A stretch of 64,000 nucleotides of DNA from Eledone cirrhosa (taxonomy: Eukaryota), in contig OZ024742.1 in the NCBI GenBank assembly GCA_964016885.1, forward strand, positions 323,516,001 to 323,580,000, read 5' to 3'. How positions within the stretch are numbered: position 1 is the stretch's first letter; each line of letters begins with the position of its first letter. Positions 27,038 through 47,810 of this stretch are shown here, piece by piece. The position numbers were made by a program, and so were the translations under genes. Under the pieces are notes generated by a model. The model was given only the letters and a program-made list of their open reading frames with translations, had not been told where the DNA came from and ran no database searches.

Positions 27038-27167
27038 AAATATGGTTTTATAAATATAGTTTCCATTTATTTAATATTGTAAATATACTCCAAATATTTG
27101 TCGAGTGCTTTTATATCAGTTATAAATATTTACTAGTTGTAACCCAACAATTTAAATATAACTTTCC

Positions 27168-28135
27168 ATATATATATAATATATATATATAATATATATA
27201 TATATATAATATAATATATAATATAATATAATATATATATATATATATATAATATAATATAATATATAATATATATATATATAATATATATATATATAAT
27301 ATATATATATATAATATATATATATAATATATATATATAATATATATATATAATATATATATATAATATATATATATAATATATATATATATATAATATA
27401 TATATATAATATATATATAATATATATATATAATATATATATATATATAATATATATATATAATATATATATATATATAATATATATATATAATATATAT
27501 ATATATATAATATATATATATATAATATATATATATAATATATATATATATAATATATATATATAATATATATATATATAATATATATATATAATATATA
27601 TATATAATATATATATATAATATATATATATAATATATATATATAATATATATATATAATATATATATATAATATATATATATAATATATATATATAATA
27701 TATATATAATATATATATATAATATATATATATATATAATATATATATAATATATATATATAATATATATATATATAATATATATATATAATATATATAT
27801 ATAATATATATATATATAATATATATATATAATATATATATATAATATATATATATATAAGATATATATATAATATATATATATAATATATATATATAAT
27901 ATATATATATATAAGATATATATATAATATATATATATAATATATATATATAATATATATATATATAAGATATATATATAATATATATATATATAAGATA
28001 TATATATAATATATATATATAATATACATATATAATATACATATATATATATATATAATATATATAATATATATATATAATATATATATATATATAATAT
28101 ACATAATATATATATATATATATATAATATACATA

Positions 28136-28167
<32 letters not shown>

Positions 28168-28973
28168 CATATATAATATACATATGTATATATATAATAT
28201 ACATATATAATATACATATATATATATAATATACATATATAATATACATATATAATATATATATATATATATAATATACATATATATATAATATATATAT
28301 ATATAATATACATATATATATAATATATATATATATAATATACATATATATATAATATACATATATATATAATATATATATATATAATATACATATATAT
28401 ATAATATACATATATAATATATACATATATATATAATATATATATATATATAATATATATATATATAATATACATATATAATATATACATATATATATAA
28501 TATATATATATATATAATATATATATATATAATATACATATATATATAATATACATATATAATATATACATATATATATAATATATATATAATATACATA
28601 TATATATAATATATATATAATATACATATATATATAATATACATATATATATAATATATATATATATAATATATATATATATAATATATATATATATAAT
28701 ATATATATATATAATATATATATATATAATATATATATAATATATATATATATAATATATATATATATATAATATATATATATATAATATATATATATAT
28801 AATATATATGTATATATAATATATATATATATAATATATATGTATATATAATATATATGTATATATAATATATATGTATATATAATATATATATATATAT
28901 AATATATATATATATATAATATATATATATATATAATATATATATATATAATATATATATATATATAATATAT

Positions 28974-29018
<45 letters not shown>

Positions 29019-29806
29019 TATATAATATATATATATATAATATATATATATATAATATATATATAATATATATATATATATAATATATATATATATAATA
29101 TATAAATATATTATATATATATAATATATATATATAATATATATAATATATATATATATATATAATATATATATATATGATATATATATATATAATATAT
29201 ATATATATATGATATATATATATATAATATATATATATATATAATATATATATATATATGATATATATATATATAATATATATATATATATAATATATAT
29301 ATATATATGATATATATATAATATATATATATATAATATATATATATATATAATATATATATATATATAATATATATATAATATACATATATATAATATA
29401 TATATATATATAATATATATATATATAATATATATATATATATAATATATATATAATATACATATATATAATATATATATATATATAATATATATATATA
29501 TAATATATATATATATAATATATATGTATATATAATATATATGTATATATAATATATATGTATATATAATAATATATATATAATATATATATATATAATA
29601 TATATATATATATAATATATATATATATAATATATATATATATATATAATATATATATATATATAATATATATATATATAATATATATATATATAATATA
29701 TATATATATAATATATATATATATATAATATATATATATATAATATATATATATATAATATATATATATATATAATATATATATATATAATATATATATA
29801 TGATAT

Positions 29807-29838
<32 letters not shown>

Positions 29839-29872
29839 ATATATATATATGATATATATATATATATGATAT

Positions 29873-29904
<32 letters not shown>

Positions 29905-30465
29905 ATATATATATATATATAATATATATATATATATAATATATATATATATATAATATATATATATATATAATATATATATAATATATATATATAATAT
30001 ATAATATATATATATATATATAATATAATATATATATATATATAATATATATATAATATATATATAATATATAATATATATATATATATAATATATATAT
30101 AATATATATATATAATATATAATATATATATAATATATATATAATATATATATATATATAATATATATATAATATATATATAATATATATATATATATAA
30201 TATATATATATATATGATATATATATATATAATATATATATAATATATATATATATATGATATATATATATATATATAATATATATATATATAATATATA
30301 TATATATATAATATATAATATATATATAATATATATATATATAATATATAATATATAATATAATATATATATAATATATATATATATATAATATATATAT
30401 ATATATAATATATATATAATATATATATAATATATATATATATATAATATATATATATATATAAT

Positions 30466-30497
<32 letters not shown>

Positions 30498-31038
30498 ATA
30501 TATATATAATATATAATATATATATAATATATATATATATATAATATATATATATATATAATATATATATATATATAATATATATATAATATATACATAT
30601 ATATATAATATATATATATATATAATATATACATATATATATAATATATATATATATATAATATATATATATAATATATATATATATATAATATATATAT
30701 ATATATAATATATATATATATATAATATATATATATATATAATATATATATATATAATATATATATATAATATATATATATATATAATATATATATATAT
30801 ATAATNNNNNNNNNNNNNNNNNNNNNNNNNNNNNNNNNNNNNNNNNNNNNNNNNNNNNNNNNNNNNNNNNNNNNNNNNNNNNNNNNNNNNNNNNNNNNNN
30901 NNNNNNNNNNNNNNNNNNNNNNNNNNNNNNNNNNNNNNNNNNNNNNNNNNNNNNNNNNNNNNNNNNNNNNNNNNNNNNNNNNNNNNNNNNNNNNNNNNNN
31001 NNNNNTATATATAATATATATAATTATATATATATAAT

Positions 31039-31083
<45 letters not shown>

Positions 31084-31207
31084 TATATTATTAATATATA
31101 TATATTATATATATATAATATATATATATAATATATATATATTATATATATATAATATATATATAATATATAATATATTATATATATATATTATATATAA
31201 TATATAT

Positions 31208-31256
<49 letters not shown>

Positions 31257-31285
31257 ATATATATATATAAATATATATATATAAT

Positions 31286-31317
<32 letters not shown>

Positions 31318-31793
31318 ATATATATATATAATATAATATATAAATATATAATATATATATATATAATAATATATATATAATATATATATATAATATATAT
31401 ATATAATATATATATATAATATATATATATAATATATATATATAATATATATATATATAATATATATATATAATATATATATATAATATATATAAATAAT
31501 ATATATATAATATATATAAATAATATATATATATATATAATATATATATATATAATATATATATATTAATATATATAATATATATATATTAATAATATAA
31601 TATATATATAATATATATATATATAATATATATATATAAATATATATATTATATATAATATATAATATATATATATATAATATATATAATATATTAATAT
31701 ATATATATATATATATATATAATATAATATATATATATATAATATATAAATATAATATATATATAATATATATATATAATATATATATATAAT
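27168..31793. repeat. Very long compound (TA)n tract containing an assembly gap (N 30806-31005)
   Basis: Low-complexity A/T with sparse C/G variants; true length unknown. Confidence 0.97.
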
Positions 31794-34075
31794 AATTAGA
31801 GTCAGATAATATAGAGGAACAGTGGGAATTCCTGAAAGCAAACCTGCTGACGGCGGCAGACGAAGTCTGTGGCTGGAGCAGGCCTGTAGGTAGGAGGAGA
31901 GTAACATGGTGGTGGAACAGTAAGGTGGAGGAGTCAATTAAGGCCAAAAGCAGGCTGGAAAGTATGGCGGAATGGGGAAGTAGAGAAGACTATCAAGTGG
32001 CCAGGAGGGAAGCTAGGAGACAAGTGTACTTCGCAAGAAGGAAGCAGAGAAAAGAAAGTTCAAGCATGTTCTACAACGTGAGGACCAAAAACGTGAGGTG
32101 TCAAGATTGATAGGTAATGTGTCAAGGAAAACCGTGATATTGTCGGGGAGAAGTGTGTACTTAATGATGATGGCGTACTTGCCATCACTGACGCTGATAA
32201 GAAGCTTGCTTGGAAGTGTCACTACGAAAGGCTTCTAAATGAGGAGAATAAATGGGAGAAAGACAGTCTCCCCCACATCGACCCAATAGAGGGACCGGCA
32301 GTGTTAGTCGAAGGTAGTATAATAAGTAAGGCAATCAAAGATATGAAGATGGGTAAGGCGGCTGGGCCTTCGGAAATAGTTGCTAAGATGCTGAAAGCCT
32401 CTGGAACGGTGGGACACACCATGGTCACCCGAATAGTAAACCAAGTCATACAGAATGGGGTTGTTCCGAAGGACTGGCGTAGCAGCATCATCATTAACTG
32501 TTACAAGGGTAAAGGAGATGCCCTAGATAGGAGTAACTATAGAGGCATTAAATTAATTGACCAGGTCATGAAGGTCACGGAAAAAGTTATAGCGCAACTA
32601 ATCAGAGAGAGAATTGATCTAGATGAAATGCAGTTCGGTTTTGTGTCAGGCAAAAGTACCACAGACGCTCTCTTCACAGTGGAGTTCAAGACCGGCTGCC
32701 CATGGAACTCCTATACGCAGATGATCTAACGCTCATAGCTGAATCAATGGCCGAGCTAGAGAAGAAATTCCAAACATGGAAGCATGGCCTAGAATCAAAA
32801 GGCCTTAAAATTAACCTGGCTAAGACTAAAGTTCTAGTTTGTAGGAAAGAAAATAAGGCGACGGTCCCTTCCGGGAAATGGCCATGCTCAGTGTGTAGGA
32901 AAGGCGTAGGTAGAAACTCCATTTTGTGTCCCAAATGCAAAGTATTGGTGCATAAAAGATGTAGTGGGATCACAGGTAAGCTAACTAAGAACATAGATTT
33001 TACATGTGGCCGGTGCTCTGGTGCAATAAGTAGCAGCAAGTGCCCACAAAATACTAGATCTTTCAATTGCGCAGAGGGTTCTATAGAAATAGTGGACAGC
33101 TTCCGTTACCTGGGTGACAAAATCAGCAGTGGGGGAGGGTGCTCTGAAAGTACAGTAGCTAGAGTCAGAACTGGATGGAAAAAGTTCAGAGAGCTTATAC
33201 CACTATTAGCCACTAAAGGGTTCACCCTAAAAATGAAAGGCAGGTTGTATGATGCCTGCATACGAACAACAATGTTGCATGGCAGTGAGACCTGGGCATT
33301 GTGTGCAGAGGATATACGCAGACTAGAGAGGAACGAAGCTTGCATGCTCCGCTGGATGTGTAATAGTAACATACGTGAACGGCAAAGCATAAGCGAACTA
33401 AGGAAAAAATTAGAAATAAGAGGGATCAGATGTTGTTTACTCGAGAGAAGGCTACGTTGGTATGGTCACGTGATGCACATGAAAGACGACAGCTGTATAA
33501 CAAAGTGCAGGGCAATAAAGATAGACGGTAGCTACGGAGTAGGCAGACCCAGAAAAACCTGGGACGAGCTGATAAATTCCGACCTCACACACTTACACCT
33601 CTCCAAGACAATGTCACTGGACCGAGACCTTTGGCGGTACTCAGTAATAGAGAAGACCCGCCTTACCTAAATACAAAGTAAAACCTACTACAGTCAGTAG
33701 GCATCTCTAACAAAATACACCCCCCCCCCCGTCCTACCACCCCCACCCCATCCACACCGCCCCTTTCAATGTAAAGTTATGTTGGTGCCAGGGTCACAAC
33801 ATCCAGGCCAAAACAAATGAGATCGTGTAGGTGTCACGACAAAAAAACACACAGTCCACGCTGTAAATGTGGCCGTGTAGGCAACACAGTAAAAACCTCC
33901 CAGCCCCACACTGTAAATGTGGTTGGTGTTAGGAAGGGCATCCAGCTGTAGAAAACCCGCCAGACAGTCCTATGCGAGCAAGACAACCACTCTTGCCTCA
34001 AATGGGAAAACTCCCGTCCAAACCCATGCAAGCGTGGAACATGGACGTTAAACGATGATGATGATGATGATGATG
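31793..34075 (+). mobile_element. 5'-truncated, internally deleted copy of the same RTE-type LINE, antisense to EIF2B5
   Basis: Near identity to the intron-5 copy; RT core missing at about 32677 (TTDALF joined to EFKTG); (GAT)n tail. Confidence 0.93.
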
Positions 34076-42133: not shown

Positions 42134-44767
42134 CAGTCGAGTCCGCTTAAGAGTATACCCTCGGGAATGGAAAATAGTATACTCTTAACCGGACTAACTA
42201 AAAATATTCCATAGTGGTGGATTGGCAGTATCGGTAGAGGGTCGGACGCCATGCTTTTCAGCACAGTTACGTCTCTTTATGGTCTGAGTTCAAATCCCGC
42301 CGAGGTTAACTTTGCCTTTCATCCTTACGGGGTCAATAAAATAAAGTACCAGTAATACACTGGGATAATTGCTGGCTTTGTGCCAAACGTAGAAACAATT
42401 ATTATTTTGAGTCTTTCAATGATTAAAAATCGCTTTATTATCGTTTAAAATGCATTTATAAGTTTTAAAAAAATGAAAGTTACACCAAAAAGTTCAACAA
42501 GAATTGTTGCAAATTAAGCAATATTTCAACATATTGGTATGCAATTTTTATTTCTTAAAAATAGTCCAAAATGCTTTTTTGCACTCGATTGCTCGCAATG
42601 TTTTTTTCAATCAAAACCTCAATCTCAGACAGAGTATAATTTTCAAAATTTTCAAACGATTGCATCATATAGGACCGTACAGTCAACAAAGCATTTATTC
42701 CTTCTTTTCCAGAGATCTAAAATATTGATAAATGATTAAAGTTATGTTAGGTACCTATGGACATTCATATTATAAATATAAAAATAATACATACTAACCT
42801 TTCTAGTTAATTCGGTTTCAATATAATCTACTTCTTCCTCCTCTTCTATTATCATGCGCTCGATTTGAACTTCCAAACATATTTCAGCATCAGTTAAATC
42901 ACCATAGCACGGCTCGCTGACATCACAATCGATGAATTCGGGTTCCAATTGAGGAATATTGGCATCATCACTTTCAATTAATAGTACATCGTTCAACTCG
43001 ACTTCAATTTCATTGTGAAAACCCGCTTTTTTAAAGCAATTGACAATCGTCGTGGGTTTGAGAAGAAAAAGAGAGCGCTTCAACATTTGCATAGACAAAA
43101 GAACATGAACAGATTTTTCAAATTCAGTTACGCTCTTCCCATTTTCTATTGCCACCAATAACTTTCGCACAATTTGTGTACGATAATGCACTTTCACAGC
43201 ACGTATTATCCCCTTATCAAGGGACTGAATTAATGAGGTCGTATTTGGAGGTAAAAATACGATTTTTACGTTTTCAAAATGATTATCAATTTTATGACAG
43301 CTTGCATTGTCTGCAAAAATAATGACTTTTCGTTTTTGGCCACGCATTCTTTTGTCAAATTGTGCAATAATTTCCAGCCAAATGTTTTTCGTCATCCAAG
43401 CTTTTGAATTACTGTAATATGGTAGAGGTGCTTTTTTATTCAGCATACAACGAGGTCGTTGAAATTTTCAAATGACAAACGCGTGTTTTTCAGTTCCATC
43501 GGAATTGACTGCTAAGAGAATGGTGAGTCTGTCTTTTGCGGTTTTTCTACCCGTTGGATTTGTTCCAGAGACAGCTAGTGTACCAGATGGAAGTGCTTTA
43601 AAAAAAAGACCAGATTCATCGAAATTATACACATCCTTTGGTGAATAGCCGTCAATTTCCTTGGTATAAATTGTTTCTATCCAATGTTTGGCACTTAAGT
43701 GATCAGCGACAGCTCTTTCACCATGCACTTTCATGAATTTTATATTTTCACGCTTTTTAAGTCTCTCTAACCAACCATGAGATGGTTCAAAATCGGGAAT
43801 TCCCAAAGTTTGTGTAAATATTTTTGCCTTTTCAAGCATCATAGGGCCGTTGATCGGAACATTTTGACTTCTCATTTGGTGAAACCATTTTATGAGTGCA
43901 TCTTCCAATCCTTGGTGATCAACTGATCTACATTTTGCATCCAAATTCACATTTGATAGAGCTAATTTTCGATATTTTTTCTCGTTTTTTTTTTAATTCT
44001 GGAGATGGCTGCTTGATTGCAATTGAATTTATTTGACAATTCATTTTGTGACTTGGCGGATTTCAATTAATCCAAAATAGCAATTTTTTTAGTAATAGAT
44101 AAAGCAGAGCGTTTCAAGGACATTTTTTATGTTACTTTACCGTATTCAGTGACGTGGTTAGTGGGTCTGGTCACTACTAATGATCGAATCCGAGAATAGC
44201 CCTTAAAAGGACTGTTATCGCATACGGTCTGATCGGATCTGAGGATAGCCCTTAAAAGGACTGTCACATACAGTAAGGATGAACAGACGAAGGAAGAAGT
44301 TGAACGGACGAGCAAGGCGTGAGATGTAGTTTTCGGTCAACTATTTTCATACATGAAGCGACGATACCGAAATACAAGGCGTGTGTGAGTGACAAGTGTA
44401 TTAGAGGAGAGGAACAACGATACGCGGGCTGACCCTGCCAAAGGTCGACTGTGTTTGGAACCACTCTATTTGTACAAAAATAATCGTTTGATGTTTAGCC
44501 GCTGCGTAGGCGTTTTATTTTGGTGGCTTAAGGGTTGTTTGTTTCATGGTAGCTAAGCAGATAGATAGTTATTTATTTCACAGATGTTATTTCCGGTGGC
44601 TGTACATACTCTTATTCGGACTAAATTATATAGAAAATATATAAACGGGAATTGATTATGTTATACTCTTGTGCGAACTATACTCTTAAGCGGACCCATG
44701 CACTGTACAAAAGATAGTACATAAATTCGGGAATTGATTATGCTATACTCTTAAGTGGACTCGACTG
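42134..44767 (-). mobile_element. Tigger/pogo-family DNA transposon with decayed CENP-B HTH + DDE transposase
   Basis: TIRs CAGTCGAGTCC(G/A)CTTAAGAGTATA, TA target duplication at 42132-33 and 44768-69; transposase from ATG 44123 (FEPSHGWLERLK, NFDESGLF, DNASCH, LPPNTTSLIQ.LD.GII) broken by stops and frameshifts. Confidence 0.93.
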
Positions 44768-44771
44768 TATA

Positions 44772-45560
44772 ATACAATGCTTACAGAACGAAAGCACAAA
44801 CAAATCTAATATAAAGGAAAGAGAAAGGAAAAACAAAAAAGAAAGAGAAAAGAAAAACAACCCACACACACAAGCATGCAGCACACACATAGAACCGCAT
44901 ACAATAAAAGGCAGGCGGAAGGGGTGGATAACCGAGCCGCTACCAGAGTAAAAGATAATAGTATCGCAAGGAGCATTGGAAAAGCTCTCTAATAATTTTT
45001 TAGGCAAGCCAGCACGCTCGCAGCATAACCTCAGGTGATGGTGAGGCATGCACTGGAACAACCAAGCGCTCTCACGAACATCACCAGTTACCTCTGTTAG
45101 GCGAACCGCCAGTGAAGATAAGAATCTCGCAGTCAGTAGTCTGACTTCCCCAAACGTCTCGAACGTCACAGGGTAGAAAATGTAGTTGGCCGACGACAGA
45201 TCACAGTATTTTAGGATTTTGTTCCGTTCGGCTGCGGAAGCAGTGGCTCTCGCCCTAACCGCACCTTCCGGGATGTGGGAAGAAGCAAAAGAGTCACTAA
45301 CCGTGACGTCCCAGATAAGGCACTCCCCTCTCGACCAGGGGCACAGGGCAAGGTCGTCAGGTCTTTCCCCATAAATTCTGGACAACCCAGGCGGTTCCAA
45401 AATTGAAGGGATGTTTGCCCGGGCCAAAGCTCTCTTGAAAATTAGGTTTAGCCCCATGTGACGCGCGAAACGACCGGCATTCAGGCGGCAAGAAAGACCG
45501 TAGAGTCAAGGTATTTGCCACACCGACACCTCAGACGCCGGCTCCCATTCTGAGAGCAAT
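44772..45560 (-). mobile_element. 5'-truncated second copy of the CRE-like element (endonuclease domain and T-rich 3' UTR)
   Basis: ORF 44738-45457 (KRALARANIPSILEPPGLSR..RPD..LCPW..LIWDVTVSD) is homologous to 1458-1962. Confidence 0.85.
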
Positions 45561-45931: not shown

Positions 45932-45945
45932 TTATGACGTCATAA
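45932..45945. promoter_or_regulatory. Palindromic CRE-type site TTATGACGTCATAA about 100 bp upstream of the arginine-kinase-like ATG
   Basis: Perfect 14-bp palindrome containing TGACGTCA; function not shown. Confidence 0.35.
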
Positions 45946-46041: not shown

Positions 46042-47109
46042 ATGTCGGAACTGAGTCATTTATGGAAAAGGATATCCACCTCTAAAAGTAATTCTCTTCT
46101 AAAACTACACCTCAATACGGAAAAACTAGATAATTTGAAAGCGAAAAGGACTAAATACGGAGGGACAATAACAGATTGTATTCGAGTTGGTTGCAAATAT
46201 CCTAACGTTTCTATTGGAATATATGCATGTGATCAGACTGCCTACACCTTGTTTGCAGAAGTTTTCGATCCGATTATCAAAGAATATCATACTTTGAGTA
46301 CATTTAACCACCCACCACCGGATTATGGAGATGTAAATCTCCTTAATTTGTACACATTGGAAAGTACGAAAGATAACGTAATTTCTTCAAATATTAATAT
46401 TAGTCGAAATTTCGATGGTTATCGGTATCACCCAATTCTAACTAAAGGTGATCGTTTAGATATTGAAAAATTAGCCGTAGAAACTTTAACTAGCCTGGAA
46501 GGAGATCTTATGGGGCACTATATTTCTCATATTGGTATTTCAGAAGATGATCGCAAAGAGTTAATATATGAGAACTCACATTTCGATAATTCCAACAGAT
46601 TAAAGAAGGCAGCAGGTTGTTATGATGATTGGCCAGCTGGTAGAGGTGTTTATTACAATTTGGACAAGAATGTCATATGTTGGGTGAACGAAGAAGACCA
46701 TCTTCGTGTATTCTGCAGTGCAACCGGCCCGCATTTAGCCGACGCCTATAAGAGGTTGGTTCGACTGCTACAATCAATTGAGAAAAAAATAATGTTTGCC
46801 CAAGGATCCTGGGGTTATTTAAACTTTTGCTGTAGTAACTTAGGAACTGCTATGTATATAAGCTTGCTTGTCAGACTTCCACGTCAAGAACTAAAACCAG
46901 AAACCATTGAGATCTGCAAAAAATATAGCCTCGAATGTAGACTTATCCAAAATTTGTTTACGCACAGCATCTTTGAAATAGTAAATAAACGTGTTATTGG
47001 AACAACAGAATATGAAACAGTTAATACAGTAGCTACGGGAACGGTTCAGATATTAAATAGTGAAGAAAATGTACCAAAGCCGCCAAATCCCGAACAAACG
47101 AATAAATAA
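46042..47109 (+). CDS. Intronless arginine kinase-like (phosphagen kinase family) protein, 355 aa, with a degenerate ATP-binding site
   Basis: Uninterrupted ORF with SLLK.HL, GIYACD, WPAGRG, WVNEEDHLR, FC.SNLGT and NKR..G.TEY motifs; AATAAA at and after the stop. Confidence 0.9.
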   Translation: MSELSHLWKRISTSKSNSLLKLHLNTEKLDNLKAKRTKYGGTITDCIRVGCKYPNVSIGIYACDQTAYTLFAEVFDPIIKEYHTLSTFNHPPPDYGDVNLLNLYTLESTKDNVISSNINISRNFDGYRYHPILTKGDRLDIEKLAVETLTSLEGDLMGHYISHIGISEDDRKELIYENSHFDNSNRLKKAAGCYDDWPAGRGVYYNLDKNVICWVNEEDHLRVFCSATGPHLADAYKRLVRLLQSIEKKIMFAQGSWGYLNFCCSNLGTAMYISLLVRLPRQELKPETIEICKKYSLECRLIQNLFTHSIFEIVNKRVIGTTEYETVNTVATGTVQILNSEENVPKPPNPEQTNK

Positions 47110-47810
47110 ATGAATAAACCTTTCGACAGACGTTCGCTTGAGATAGTAAGTTGCTGAAAACAACACTATTTTAATAGAAGTGCAATATTTCACAAAGTAA
47201 CCAGTCTTATGTGAATCAATTATAATAAATAAATCTGATATGTATATGTGTGTGTGTGTGTGTGTACACATAACTATAGGCATTTCCGCATTCCAGTTAA
47301 CTCGGGTAACGAAATTTTGCGTTACATAAAATCAAAAATGATGATAATTTAAAAATACCCTTTCTTCTTAACCAAAAAAAAAACACACTTCTCAGCGGTT
47401 TAGCTATAGATGTATAGTTAACAATTTGTCAAAGTATAGTTAATATTCACGTAACGTATGTGTGTGCGAATGTCATTGGCAGTATCGGTAGAGGGTTGGA
47501 CGCCATTCTCTCCAGCATAGTTACGTCCCTTTACGGTCTCAGTTCAAATCCCGCCGAGGTTAACTTTGCCTTTCATCCTTACAGGGTCGATAAAATAAAG
47601 TACCAGTAATGTACTGAAATAATTGCTGGCCTTGTGCCAAAATTAGAAACAATTATAATAAAACCAGAGAAGGACGGTGGATTGGCAATATCGGTGGAGC
47701 GTCAGAGACCATATTTTGCAGCATAGAGTTATGGCCCTTTAATTCTAGTTCAAATCCCACCGAGGTTATCTTTGCTTTTCATCCTTAAGGGGTCGATAAA
47801 ATAAAGTACC

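What the first reader, a model, noticed from the sequence alone, without database searches (positions are those of the whole stretch)
46042..47109. Intact intronless arginine kinase paralogue that looks like a pseudoenzyme
Seen: a 355-codon ORF without stop or frameshift amid decayed repeats. By-eye alignment to canonical arginine kinase (Limulus numbering): STRVR becomes SSNIN (R124 and R126 lost), MRASVH becomes MYISLL (R280 and H284 lost), HFLF becomes NSHF (H185 lost), RGxxGEH becomes RLIQNLF (E314 loop lost), and the DSGVG guanidino-specificity loop becomes NVSIG. NEEDHLR, C271, R193 and R309 are kept. Three of the five ATP-phosphate arginines are gone while the fold motifs and frame persist. 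Inferred: a retrocopy kept under selection for a non-catalytic or altered role (structural, sperm or lens-type protein). The upstream CRE palindrome could drive restricted expression.
Basis: partly seen in the sequence, partly recalled or inferred. Interest (0 to 1): 0.75.

Follow-up and report, generated by a model that had tools for sequence, protein, structure and literature searches.

The report
Octopod arginine kinase pseudoenzyme retrogene
Octopuses and argonauts keep an intact, intron-free second copy of the energy-buffering enzyme arginine kinase that has lost most of the residues that grip ATP, so it is predicted to be catalytically dead and likely serves a non-enzymatic role, possibly in sperm (its expression is untested).

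Summary
The 355-codon ORF is intact, single-copy and has the arginine kinase (AK) fold. It is a processed copy: the intron-bearing parent with an intact active site lies on another contig, and the ORF runs across its five introns. It is not a young pseudogene. Orthologues with the same losses occur in Octopus vulgaris/sinensis, O. bimaculoides, two unnamed records and Argonauta (two copies), forming one clade (100/100). A neutrally evolving frame survived in 6 of 2000 simulations at 23% divergence and 0 of 2000 at 40-45%, and the substitutions are conservative. In 7 of 7 members the ATP side (R124, R126, H185, R280, H284, R330) and the E314 lid are gone; in Limulus AK, R280K alone cuts kcat about 100-fold. 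R229, C271, N274 and most of NEEDH stay. Best reading: a retained pseudoenzyme with a non-catalytic role, most likely in the male germ line. That role rests on analogy only; no expression data were found. The CRE site is not shown to exceed chance. Degenerate AK domains are common elsewhere, so this is a lineage-specific variant, not a new class.

The parts
46042..47109 (+). Intronless ORF, 355 aa, arginine-kinase-fold paralogue (retrogene)
   Evidence: single copy in the own genome
46081..46281 (+). N-terminal ATP:guanido phosphotransferase domain (PF02807, aa 14-80)
   Evidence: E 1e-19
46462..47070 (+). C-terminal ATP:guanido phosphotransferase domain (PF00217, aa 141-343)
   Evidence: E 7e-41
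46204..46224 (+). Guanidino-specificity loop, NVSIGIY in place of DSGVGIY (D62, S63, G64 lost; G66, Y68 kept)
46384..46407 (+). SSNINISR strand: R124>N and R126>N (N in 7 of 7 clade members); S122 and R129 kept
46573..46575 (+). H185>N (nucleotide ring contact), N in 7 of 7
46687..46707 (+). NEEDHLR motif kept (E225 in 6 of 7, R229 in 7 of 7)
46828..46869 (+). C271 and N274 kept; P272>C, R280>Y, H284>L
46939..46971 (+). Remodelled 309-320 lid: R309 present here, G313/E314/H315 replaced, 3 residues deleted; predicted as a strand-turn-strand
46993..46995 (+).
45935..45942 (.). TGACGTCA palindrome 107 nt upstream of the ATG; function untested
   Evidence: 2 in window, 0.36 expected, 7 of 100 shuffles reach 2
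47113..47229 (+). AATAAA hexamers at 47113 and 47224, candidate polyadenylation signals; untested
   Evidence: read from the sequence

Best explanation
This is an intron-free copy of arginine kinase, shared by octopuses and argonauts and kept by purifying selection, that lacks most ATP-binding residues, is predicted to be catalytically dead, and likely works as a non-enzymatic structural or scaffold protein, most likely in the male germ line (untested). Shown: intact ORF, processed structure against an intron-bearing parent, one orthologous clade, conservative substitution, and loss of R124, R126, H185, R280, H284, R330 and E314 in 7 of 7 members. Inferred: an mRNA of the parent's exon-1b isoform was retroposed; a burst of change (about 1.9 substitutions per site on the stem) removed the nucleotide pocket and shortened the lid; the folded AK shell then came under a new constraint. 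The sperm role is analogy only.
For: Parent with five GT-AG introns and all catalytic residues on contig C4; nucleotide match across the exon 1b/2 junction; N-terminus scores higher against exon 1b than 1a in 6 of 6 proteins tested. Clade of 7 proteins at 100/100. Neutral survival of the frame: 6 of 2000 at 23% divergence, 0 of 2000 at 40% and 45%, 0 of 2000 at 23% with indels. A processed AK fragment on C9 is already broken at 82% nucleotide identity to the parent. Mean BLOSUM62 of differences to O. bimaculoides +0.49 against neutral -0.49 +/- 0.18, maximum 0.11 in 500 runs; family-conserved sites invariant in the clade at 60 of 113 against 27 of 95 variable sites, p=4e-4. Model pLDDT 82.6, TM 0.88 to crab AK. 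Limulus R280K lowers kcat from 104 to 1 per s and R280L was too weak for kinetics (PMC4169622 section 14). Analogy: 2 of 4 Drosophila AKs are testis-restricted and a mite AK is 120-fold male-biased (PMC12105342 passages); S-LAPs are abundant sperm proteins most of which lost catalytic residues (PMC3078892 abstract).
Against: No evidence of tissue or even of transcription for this gene was obtained, so the germ-line role is unsupported by data. The guanidinium/phosphoryl half of the site (E224, D226, R229, C271, N274, R193 in 7 of 7; E225 in 6 of 7; R or K at 309 in 7 of 7) is still conserved, which a purely structural protein need not keep. The cysteine gain (10-13 against 5-6) is not significant in pairwise tests (p=0.11 and 0.30) and may follow AT-biased drift. 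The testis-biased insect and mite AKs cited are not reported as dead enzymes in the passages seen. Selection was tested on proteins only. Intronless structure was shown only for this genome.
Confidence: 0.55

Rival explanations
1. Half-site neofunctionalisation: the protein no longer uses ATP but still binds a guanidinium ligand (arginine, phosphoarginine or octopine) and acts as a sensor, or as a phosphoarginine hydrolase because the shortened lid no longer shuts out water.
For: Residues that contact the guanidinium or transferred phosphoryl group in AK (E225, C271, R229, R309, N274; PMC11075012 passages) are largely kept while the nucleotide side is lost. Thirteen family-invariant sites are fixed in a new state in 7 of 7 members, five of them Asn (124, 126, 130, 185, 192), several on the strands that line the pocket (location from recalled AK structure).
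Against: E314, R330 and D62-S63-G64, which also hold arginine or its phosphate, are lost in 7 of 7. One Argonauta copy has E225A. Fixation in a new state is not enriched at family-conserved sites: 13 of 46 against 39 of 110 at other sites. Kept residues may simply be structural.
Confidence: 0.2
2. A non-catalytic protein of another tissue, for example an enzyme-derived lens crystallin or a gland protein.
For: The same sequence evidence as for the best explanation. Cephalopod lenses use enzyme-derived crystallins (S-crystallin from glutathione S-transferase, omega-crystallin from aldehyde dehydrogenase; recalled).
Against: Single copy here, unlike the expanded S-crystallins (recalled). No squid or cuttlefish orthologue among the listed hits, although these animals have similar lenses. 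Retrogenes tend to be testis-expressed (general knowledge).
Confidence: 0.15
3. A slow but real phosphagen kinase with rewired nucleotide binding.
For: NEEDHLR, C271, N274, R193 and the whole fold are kept.
Against: Three of five phosphate arginines, both nucleotide-ring histidines, R330 and E314 are lost together; one conservative change at R280 already costs about 100-fold. None of 151 other proteins from the word-based searches with all five sites covered lacks three or more.
Confidence: 0.07
4. A processed pseudogene that has stayed open by chance.
For: Intronless, lies among transposon fragments, AT-shifted codons (GC3 0.30 against 0.42 in the parent).
Against: Open frames in 7 of 7 clade members down to 54% identity; neutral survival 0 of 2000 at such distances; conservative substitutions; the C9 processed fragment shows what decay looks like in this genome.
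Confidence: 0.03

Closest known systems
Canonical molluscan/cephalopod arginine kinase (EC 2.7.3.3; allergen name Oct f 2 in the database labels; Limulus AK PDB 1BG0/1M15)
   Same: Two-domain fold (TM 0.88 to 5zhq), PF02807+PF00217, NEEDHLR, C271, N274, R193; 42-44% identical to coleoid AKs.
   Different: No coding introns; lacks R124, R126, H185, R280, H284, E314, R330, D62-S63-G64; 3-residue lid deletion; evolves faster (77% identity to the O. bimaculoides orthologue against 86% for the parent pair; 54-55% against 86% for Argonauta).
Database entries for the orthologues: XP_029639512/CAI9726195, XP_014781797/A0A0L8GEN4, GAB1608683, GAB1608508
   Same: Same clade and same losses.
   Different: Labelled automatically as 'arginine kinase(-like)'; none of the six accessions searched appears in the library (GAB1608508 was not among them).
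Drosophila S-LAP sperm pseudo-aminopeptidases (PMC3078892, abstract seen)
   Same: Enzyme paralogues that lost active-site residues yet are retained; a model for how this gene may work.
   Different: Unrelated fold; an expanded family with shown testis expression. Here one copy (two in Argonauta) and no expression data.
Testis-biased arginine kinase paralogues of arthropods (Drosophila CG5144, CG4546; mite derpt31g00440; PMC12105342 passages)
   Same: AK duplicates specialised away from the housekeeping copy.
   Different: Not shown to be related to this clade; discussed as energy-supplying enzymes; their active sites were not examined here.
Unnamed degenerate AK-fold domains in public protein clusters
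   Same: 70 of 139 scorable cluster representatives carry a domain lacking three or more of the five phosphate arginines.
   Different: Mostly multi-domain proteins, some with PH or Ras/Roc domains; far lower scores per domain; different replacements, so likely independent losses.

Membership tests
ATP:guanido phosphotransferase (phosphagen kinase) fold family | PF02807 + PF00217 above curated cut-offs | tested here: met
   71.2 and 140.3 bits against cut-offs 25.7 and 22.4
ATP:guanido phosphotransferase (phosphagen kinase) fold family | Two-domain AK fold | tested here: met
   pLDDT 82.6; Foldseek TM 0.88 to 5zhq
Active arginine kinase | Five phosphate arginines R124, R126, R229, R280, R309 | tested here: not met
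   Only R229 and R309 here; R309 is K in 5 of 7 clade members
Active arginine kinase | Nucleotide ring contacts S122, H185, H284 | tested here: not met
   S122 kept; H185>N, H284>L
Active arginine kinase | E225 and C271 | tested here: met
   Both present; E225 in 6 of 7, C271 in 7 of 7
Active arginine kinase | Lid 309-320 with E314, and R330 | tested here: not met
   E314 replaced, 3 residues deleted, R330>V
Active arginine kinase | Specificity loop D62-S63-G64-V65-G66-x-Y68 | tested here: not met
   NVSIGIY
Active arginine kinase | Measured phosphoryl transfer | not testable with these tools
   Needs an assay
Retrogene | Intronless copy of an intron-bearing parent at another locus | tested here: met
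   Parent on C4 with five introns; copy on C3 crosses the junctions
Retrogene | Poly(A) remnant and target-site duplication | tested here: inconclusive
   None evident; expected to have decayed, as 4-fold sites match the parent at only 19 of 53
Retrogene | Open frame kept under purifying selection in orthologues | tested here: met
   Protein-level tests only
Retrogene | Transcription | tested here: inconclusive
   No RNA run available for the test; see Tried and rejected
Pseudoenzyme | Enzyme fold kept, essential residues lost throughout an orthologous clade | tested here: met
   7 of 7 members
Pseudoenzyme | Shown absence of activity and a shown alternative function | not testable with these tools
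   Needs assay and localisation

The most novel reading that the evidence does not exclude
Octopods turned arginine kinase into an ATP-independent guanidinium reader: the retained E224-E225-D226/R229/C271/N274 half-site and a new asparagine-lined pocket bind phosphoarginine, arginine or octopine, making it a phosphagen sensor or a phosphoarginine hydrolase built on the kinase fold.
Probability: 0.15. Interest if true: 0.8.

Novelty: new variant of a known kind. Interest (0 to 1): 0.45.

Why it matters
It gives a clean natural case of a single-domain animal phosphagen kinase that lost one half of its active site and was still kept across octopods, with its parent gene and a decayed sibling copy in the same genome as controls. 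It corrects an automatic annotation (these entries are labelled arginine kinase). It also points to a wider, apparently undescribed set of degenerate AK-fold domains. The interest depends on the function, which is still open.

Tried and rejected
Expression: no RNA holder listed; the three runs are contigs of one sample and say nothing on expression. Supplements of two octopus gonad transcriptome papers: no hit for three terms in 6 files of PMC6341066; in PMC11202624 one GO row 'arginine kinase activity, annotated 1, significant 1' names no gene (part 1 of 54 read), so it was not used. The bioRxiv tissue atlas that includes O. bimaculoides has no AK passage in its main text; its supplements were not seen and may hold expression values for XP_014781797. 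Orthologue DNA for dN/dS: a metagenome scan found 95 pattern matches, none confirmed; against the parent, third positions are near saturation (41% identity). Homodimer prediction: no verdict, score 0.25 under the mark of 0.32. Protein atlas with the O. bimaculoides orthologue returned only ordinary phosphagen kinase clusters. Rejected: cysteine enrichment as evidence of a sperm structural protein (not significant); enrichment of new fixed residues in the pocket; CRE as more than chance at window level; assembly artefact. Date of origin unresolved: the clade joins beside all coleoid AKs, but origin from the octopod AK is not rejected (AU p=0.14). Earlier scan notes: nothing by sequence or words.

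Full report
Observation. The ORF at 46042-47109 (+) encodes 355 residues without a stop. It carries both phosphagen kinase Pfam domains above their cut-offs and matches 49 PDB sequences, arginine and taurocyamine kinases first. An AlphaFold2 model (pLDDT 82.6) matches crab AK at TM 0.88. Short-read contigs from three runs of one sample, which may be the assembly's source, span the ORF in one 1648-nt piece with a single synonymous difference. The gene is single-copy in the 3.0-Gb own genome by DNA and protein search.

Active site. It also has R330>V, P272>C and D324>E. It keeps S122, R129, R193, NEEDHLR, C271, N274 and R309. Published roles: S122, H185 and H284 contact the nucleotide ring and R124, R126, R229, R280 form the positive cluster (PMC12467219, passages). 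E225, E314 and C271 hold the guanidinium, and R229, R309, R330 and N274 hold the phosphoryl group of phosphoarginine (PMC11075012, passages). R280K lowers kcat from 104 to 1 per second and R280L was too weak for kinetics (PMC4169622, section 14). Normal kinase activity is therefore very unlikely, though it was not measured.

Origin. The own genome holds a canonical AK on contig C4 with five GT-AG introns, two alternative first coding exons and every catalytic residue intact. The window protein is 43% identical to it and aligns end to end with three short internal gaps. A 72% nucleotide match crosses the exon 1b/2 junction. The N-terminus scores higher against exon 1b than 1a in 6 of 6 clade proteins tested. 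This fits retroposition of the 1b isoform. No poly(A) tail or target-site duplication is evident, as expected when fourfold sites match the parent at 19 of 53.

Orthologues. Protein searches found the same paralogue in Octopus vulgaris/sinensis (76%), O. bimaculoides (77%), two unnamed Logan records (74%) and two Argonauta hians copies (55%, 54%). In a 32-protein tree the seven form one clade (100/100) on a stem of about 1.9 changes per site. The clade joins beside the coleoid AKs with modest support; origin from the octopod AK is not rejected (AU p=0.14). No squid or cuttlefish member appeared among the listed hits, which is weak evidence of absence. All seven lack R124, R126, H185, R280, H284, E314 and R330 and share the loop deletion. 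R309 is R in 2 and K in 5; E225 is kept in 6.

Selection. No orthologue DNA was obtained, so the tests are on proteins. Evolving the ORF neutrally (HKY-type model, parameters assumed) left an open frame in 6 of 2000 runs at 23% divergence and 0 of 2000 at 40% and 45%; with indels, 0 of 2000 at 23%. Observed differences to O. bimaculoides average +0.49 in BLOSUM62 against -0.49 +/- 0.18 under neutrality. Sites conserved in 37 canonical AKs are invariant in the clade at 60 of 113, against 27 of 95 variable sites, p=4e-4. The paralogue differs between this genome and O. bimaculoides at 23% of sites, the parent at 14%. As an internal control, a processed AK fragment on C9 is 82% identical to the parent in DNA and already has gaps and a stop.

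What is still conserved. Forty-seven family residues stay invariant, among them the NEEDH region, R229, C271, N274 and R193. Thirteen family-invariant sites are fixed in a new state, five as asparagine. This could mean a remodelled pocket, but fixation is not enriched at such sites (13 of 46 against 39 of 110), and the protein has drifted towards AT-rich codons. Cysteines number 10-13 against 5-6, not significant pairwise.

Function. I found no expression data (see Tried and rejected). The germ-line reading is by analogy. Two of four Drosophila AKs are testis-restricted and one mite AK is 120-fold male-biased (PMC12105342, passages). AKs are abundant in mosquito sperm (PMC9934393, passage). 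Drosophila S-LAPs are major sperm proteins whose largest group lost catalytic residues (PMC3078892, abstract). The upstream TGACGTCA is real and close to the start, but the window-wide count is reached by 7 of 100 shuffles and its conservation could not be checked.

Novelty. Searches of the held library found no paper on this paralogue: six accessions (none); arginine kinase with octopus and paralog, with cephalopod, sperm and testis, with pseudoenzyme, with octopus and testis, with octopus (40 of 56 listed, listings only), and phosphagen kinase with 'catalytically inactive'. Subscription journals are not covered. Degenerate AK domains are not rare: among the 149 other listed cluster representatives, 139 could be scored and 70 have a domain lacking three or more of the five arginines, including 8 of 47 proteins under 500 aa. 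That set is biased to divergent proteins; none of 151 scorable proteins from the word-based searches did. The gene is best filed as an octopod-specific variant of a known kind: a retained, probably dead enzyme paralogue.

Verdict. Observation confirmed. Retrogene under purifying selection about 0.95; dead as an arginine kinase about 0.9; non-catalytic protein with a male germ-line role about 0.55; ligand-binding or hydrolase role about 0.2. Interest 0.45.

Noticed in passing
G000:C4:286529156-286529306 and 286539257-286539404 (L008, L009): The canonical AK gene has two alternative first coding exons 10 kb apart; Sepia pharaonis records show both kinds of N-terminus.
   Followed up: partly
G000:C9:35452003-35452521 (L012:5003-5521): Broken processed AK fragment, 82% identical to the parent CDS, crossing exon junctions, with gaps, an internal duplication and a stop.
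   Followed up: partly
proteins P0088-P0236: 108 of 220 scorable AK-fold domains in cluster representatives lack three or more phosphate arginines; many are in 2-4-domain proteins, some with PH or Ras/Roc domains. Looks like a wide undescribed set of pseudo-phosphagen-kinases.
   Followed up: partly
P0003, P0004: Argonauta hians has two copies only 62% identical to each other, one with E225A; the clade evolves faster there.
   Followed up: partly
P0308: A 158-aa Octopus vulgaris 'arginine kinase' entry only 71% identical to the parent's exon 2, possibly another decayed copy.
   Followed up: no
window 47068-47106: The window protein has a proline-rich tail about 10 residues longer than the Octopus orthologues.
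   Followed up: no
window 42742-43875 (-): Tc5/pogo-type DDE transposase in two pieces (PF03221, PF03184).
   Followed up: no
window 44738-45457 (-): 239-aa ORF in a high-copy repeat ending about 470 nt upstream of the gene; no Pfam hit; resembles the tail of a non-LTR retrotransposon (recalled, untested).
   Followed up: no
window about 27100-31900: About 4.8 kb of almost pure A/T microsatellite array (GC 0.02-0.05 over 28-32 kb) that gives spurious long ORFs.
   Followed up: no
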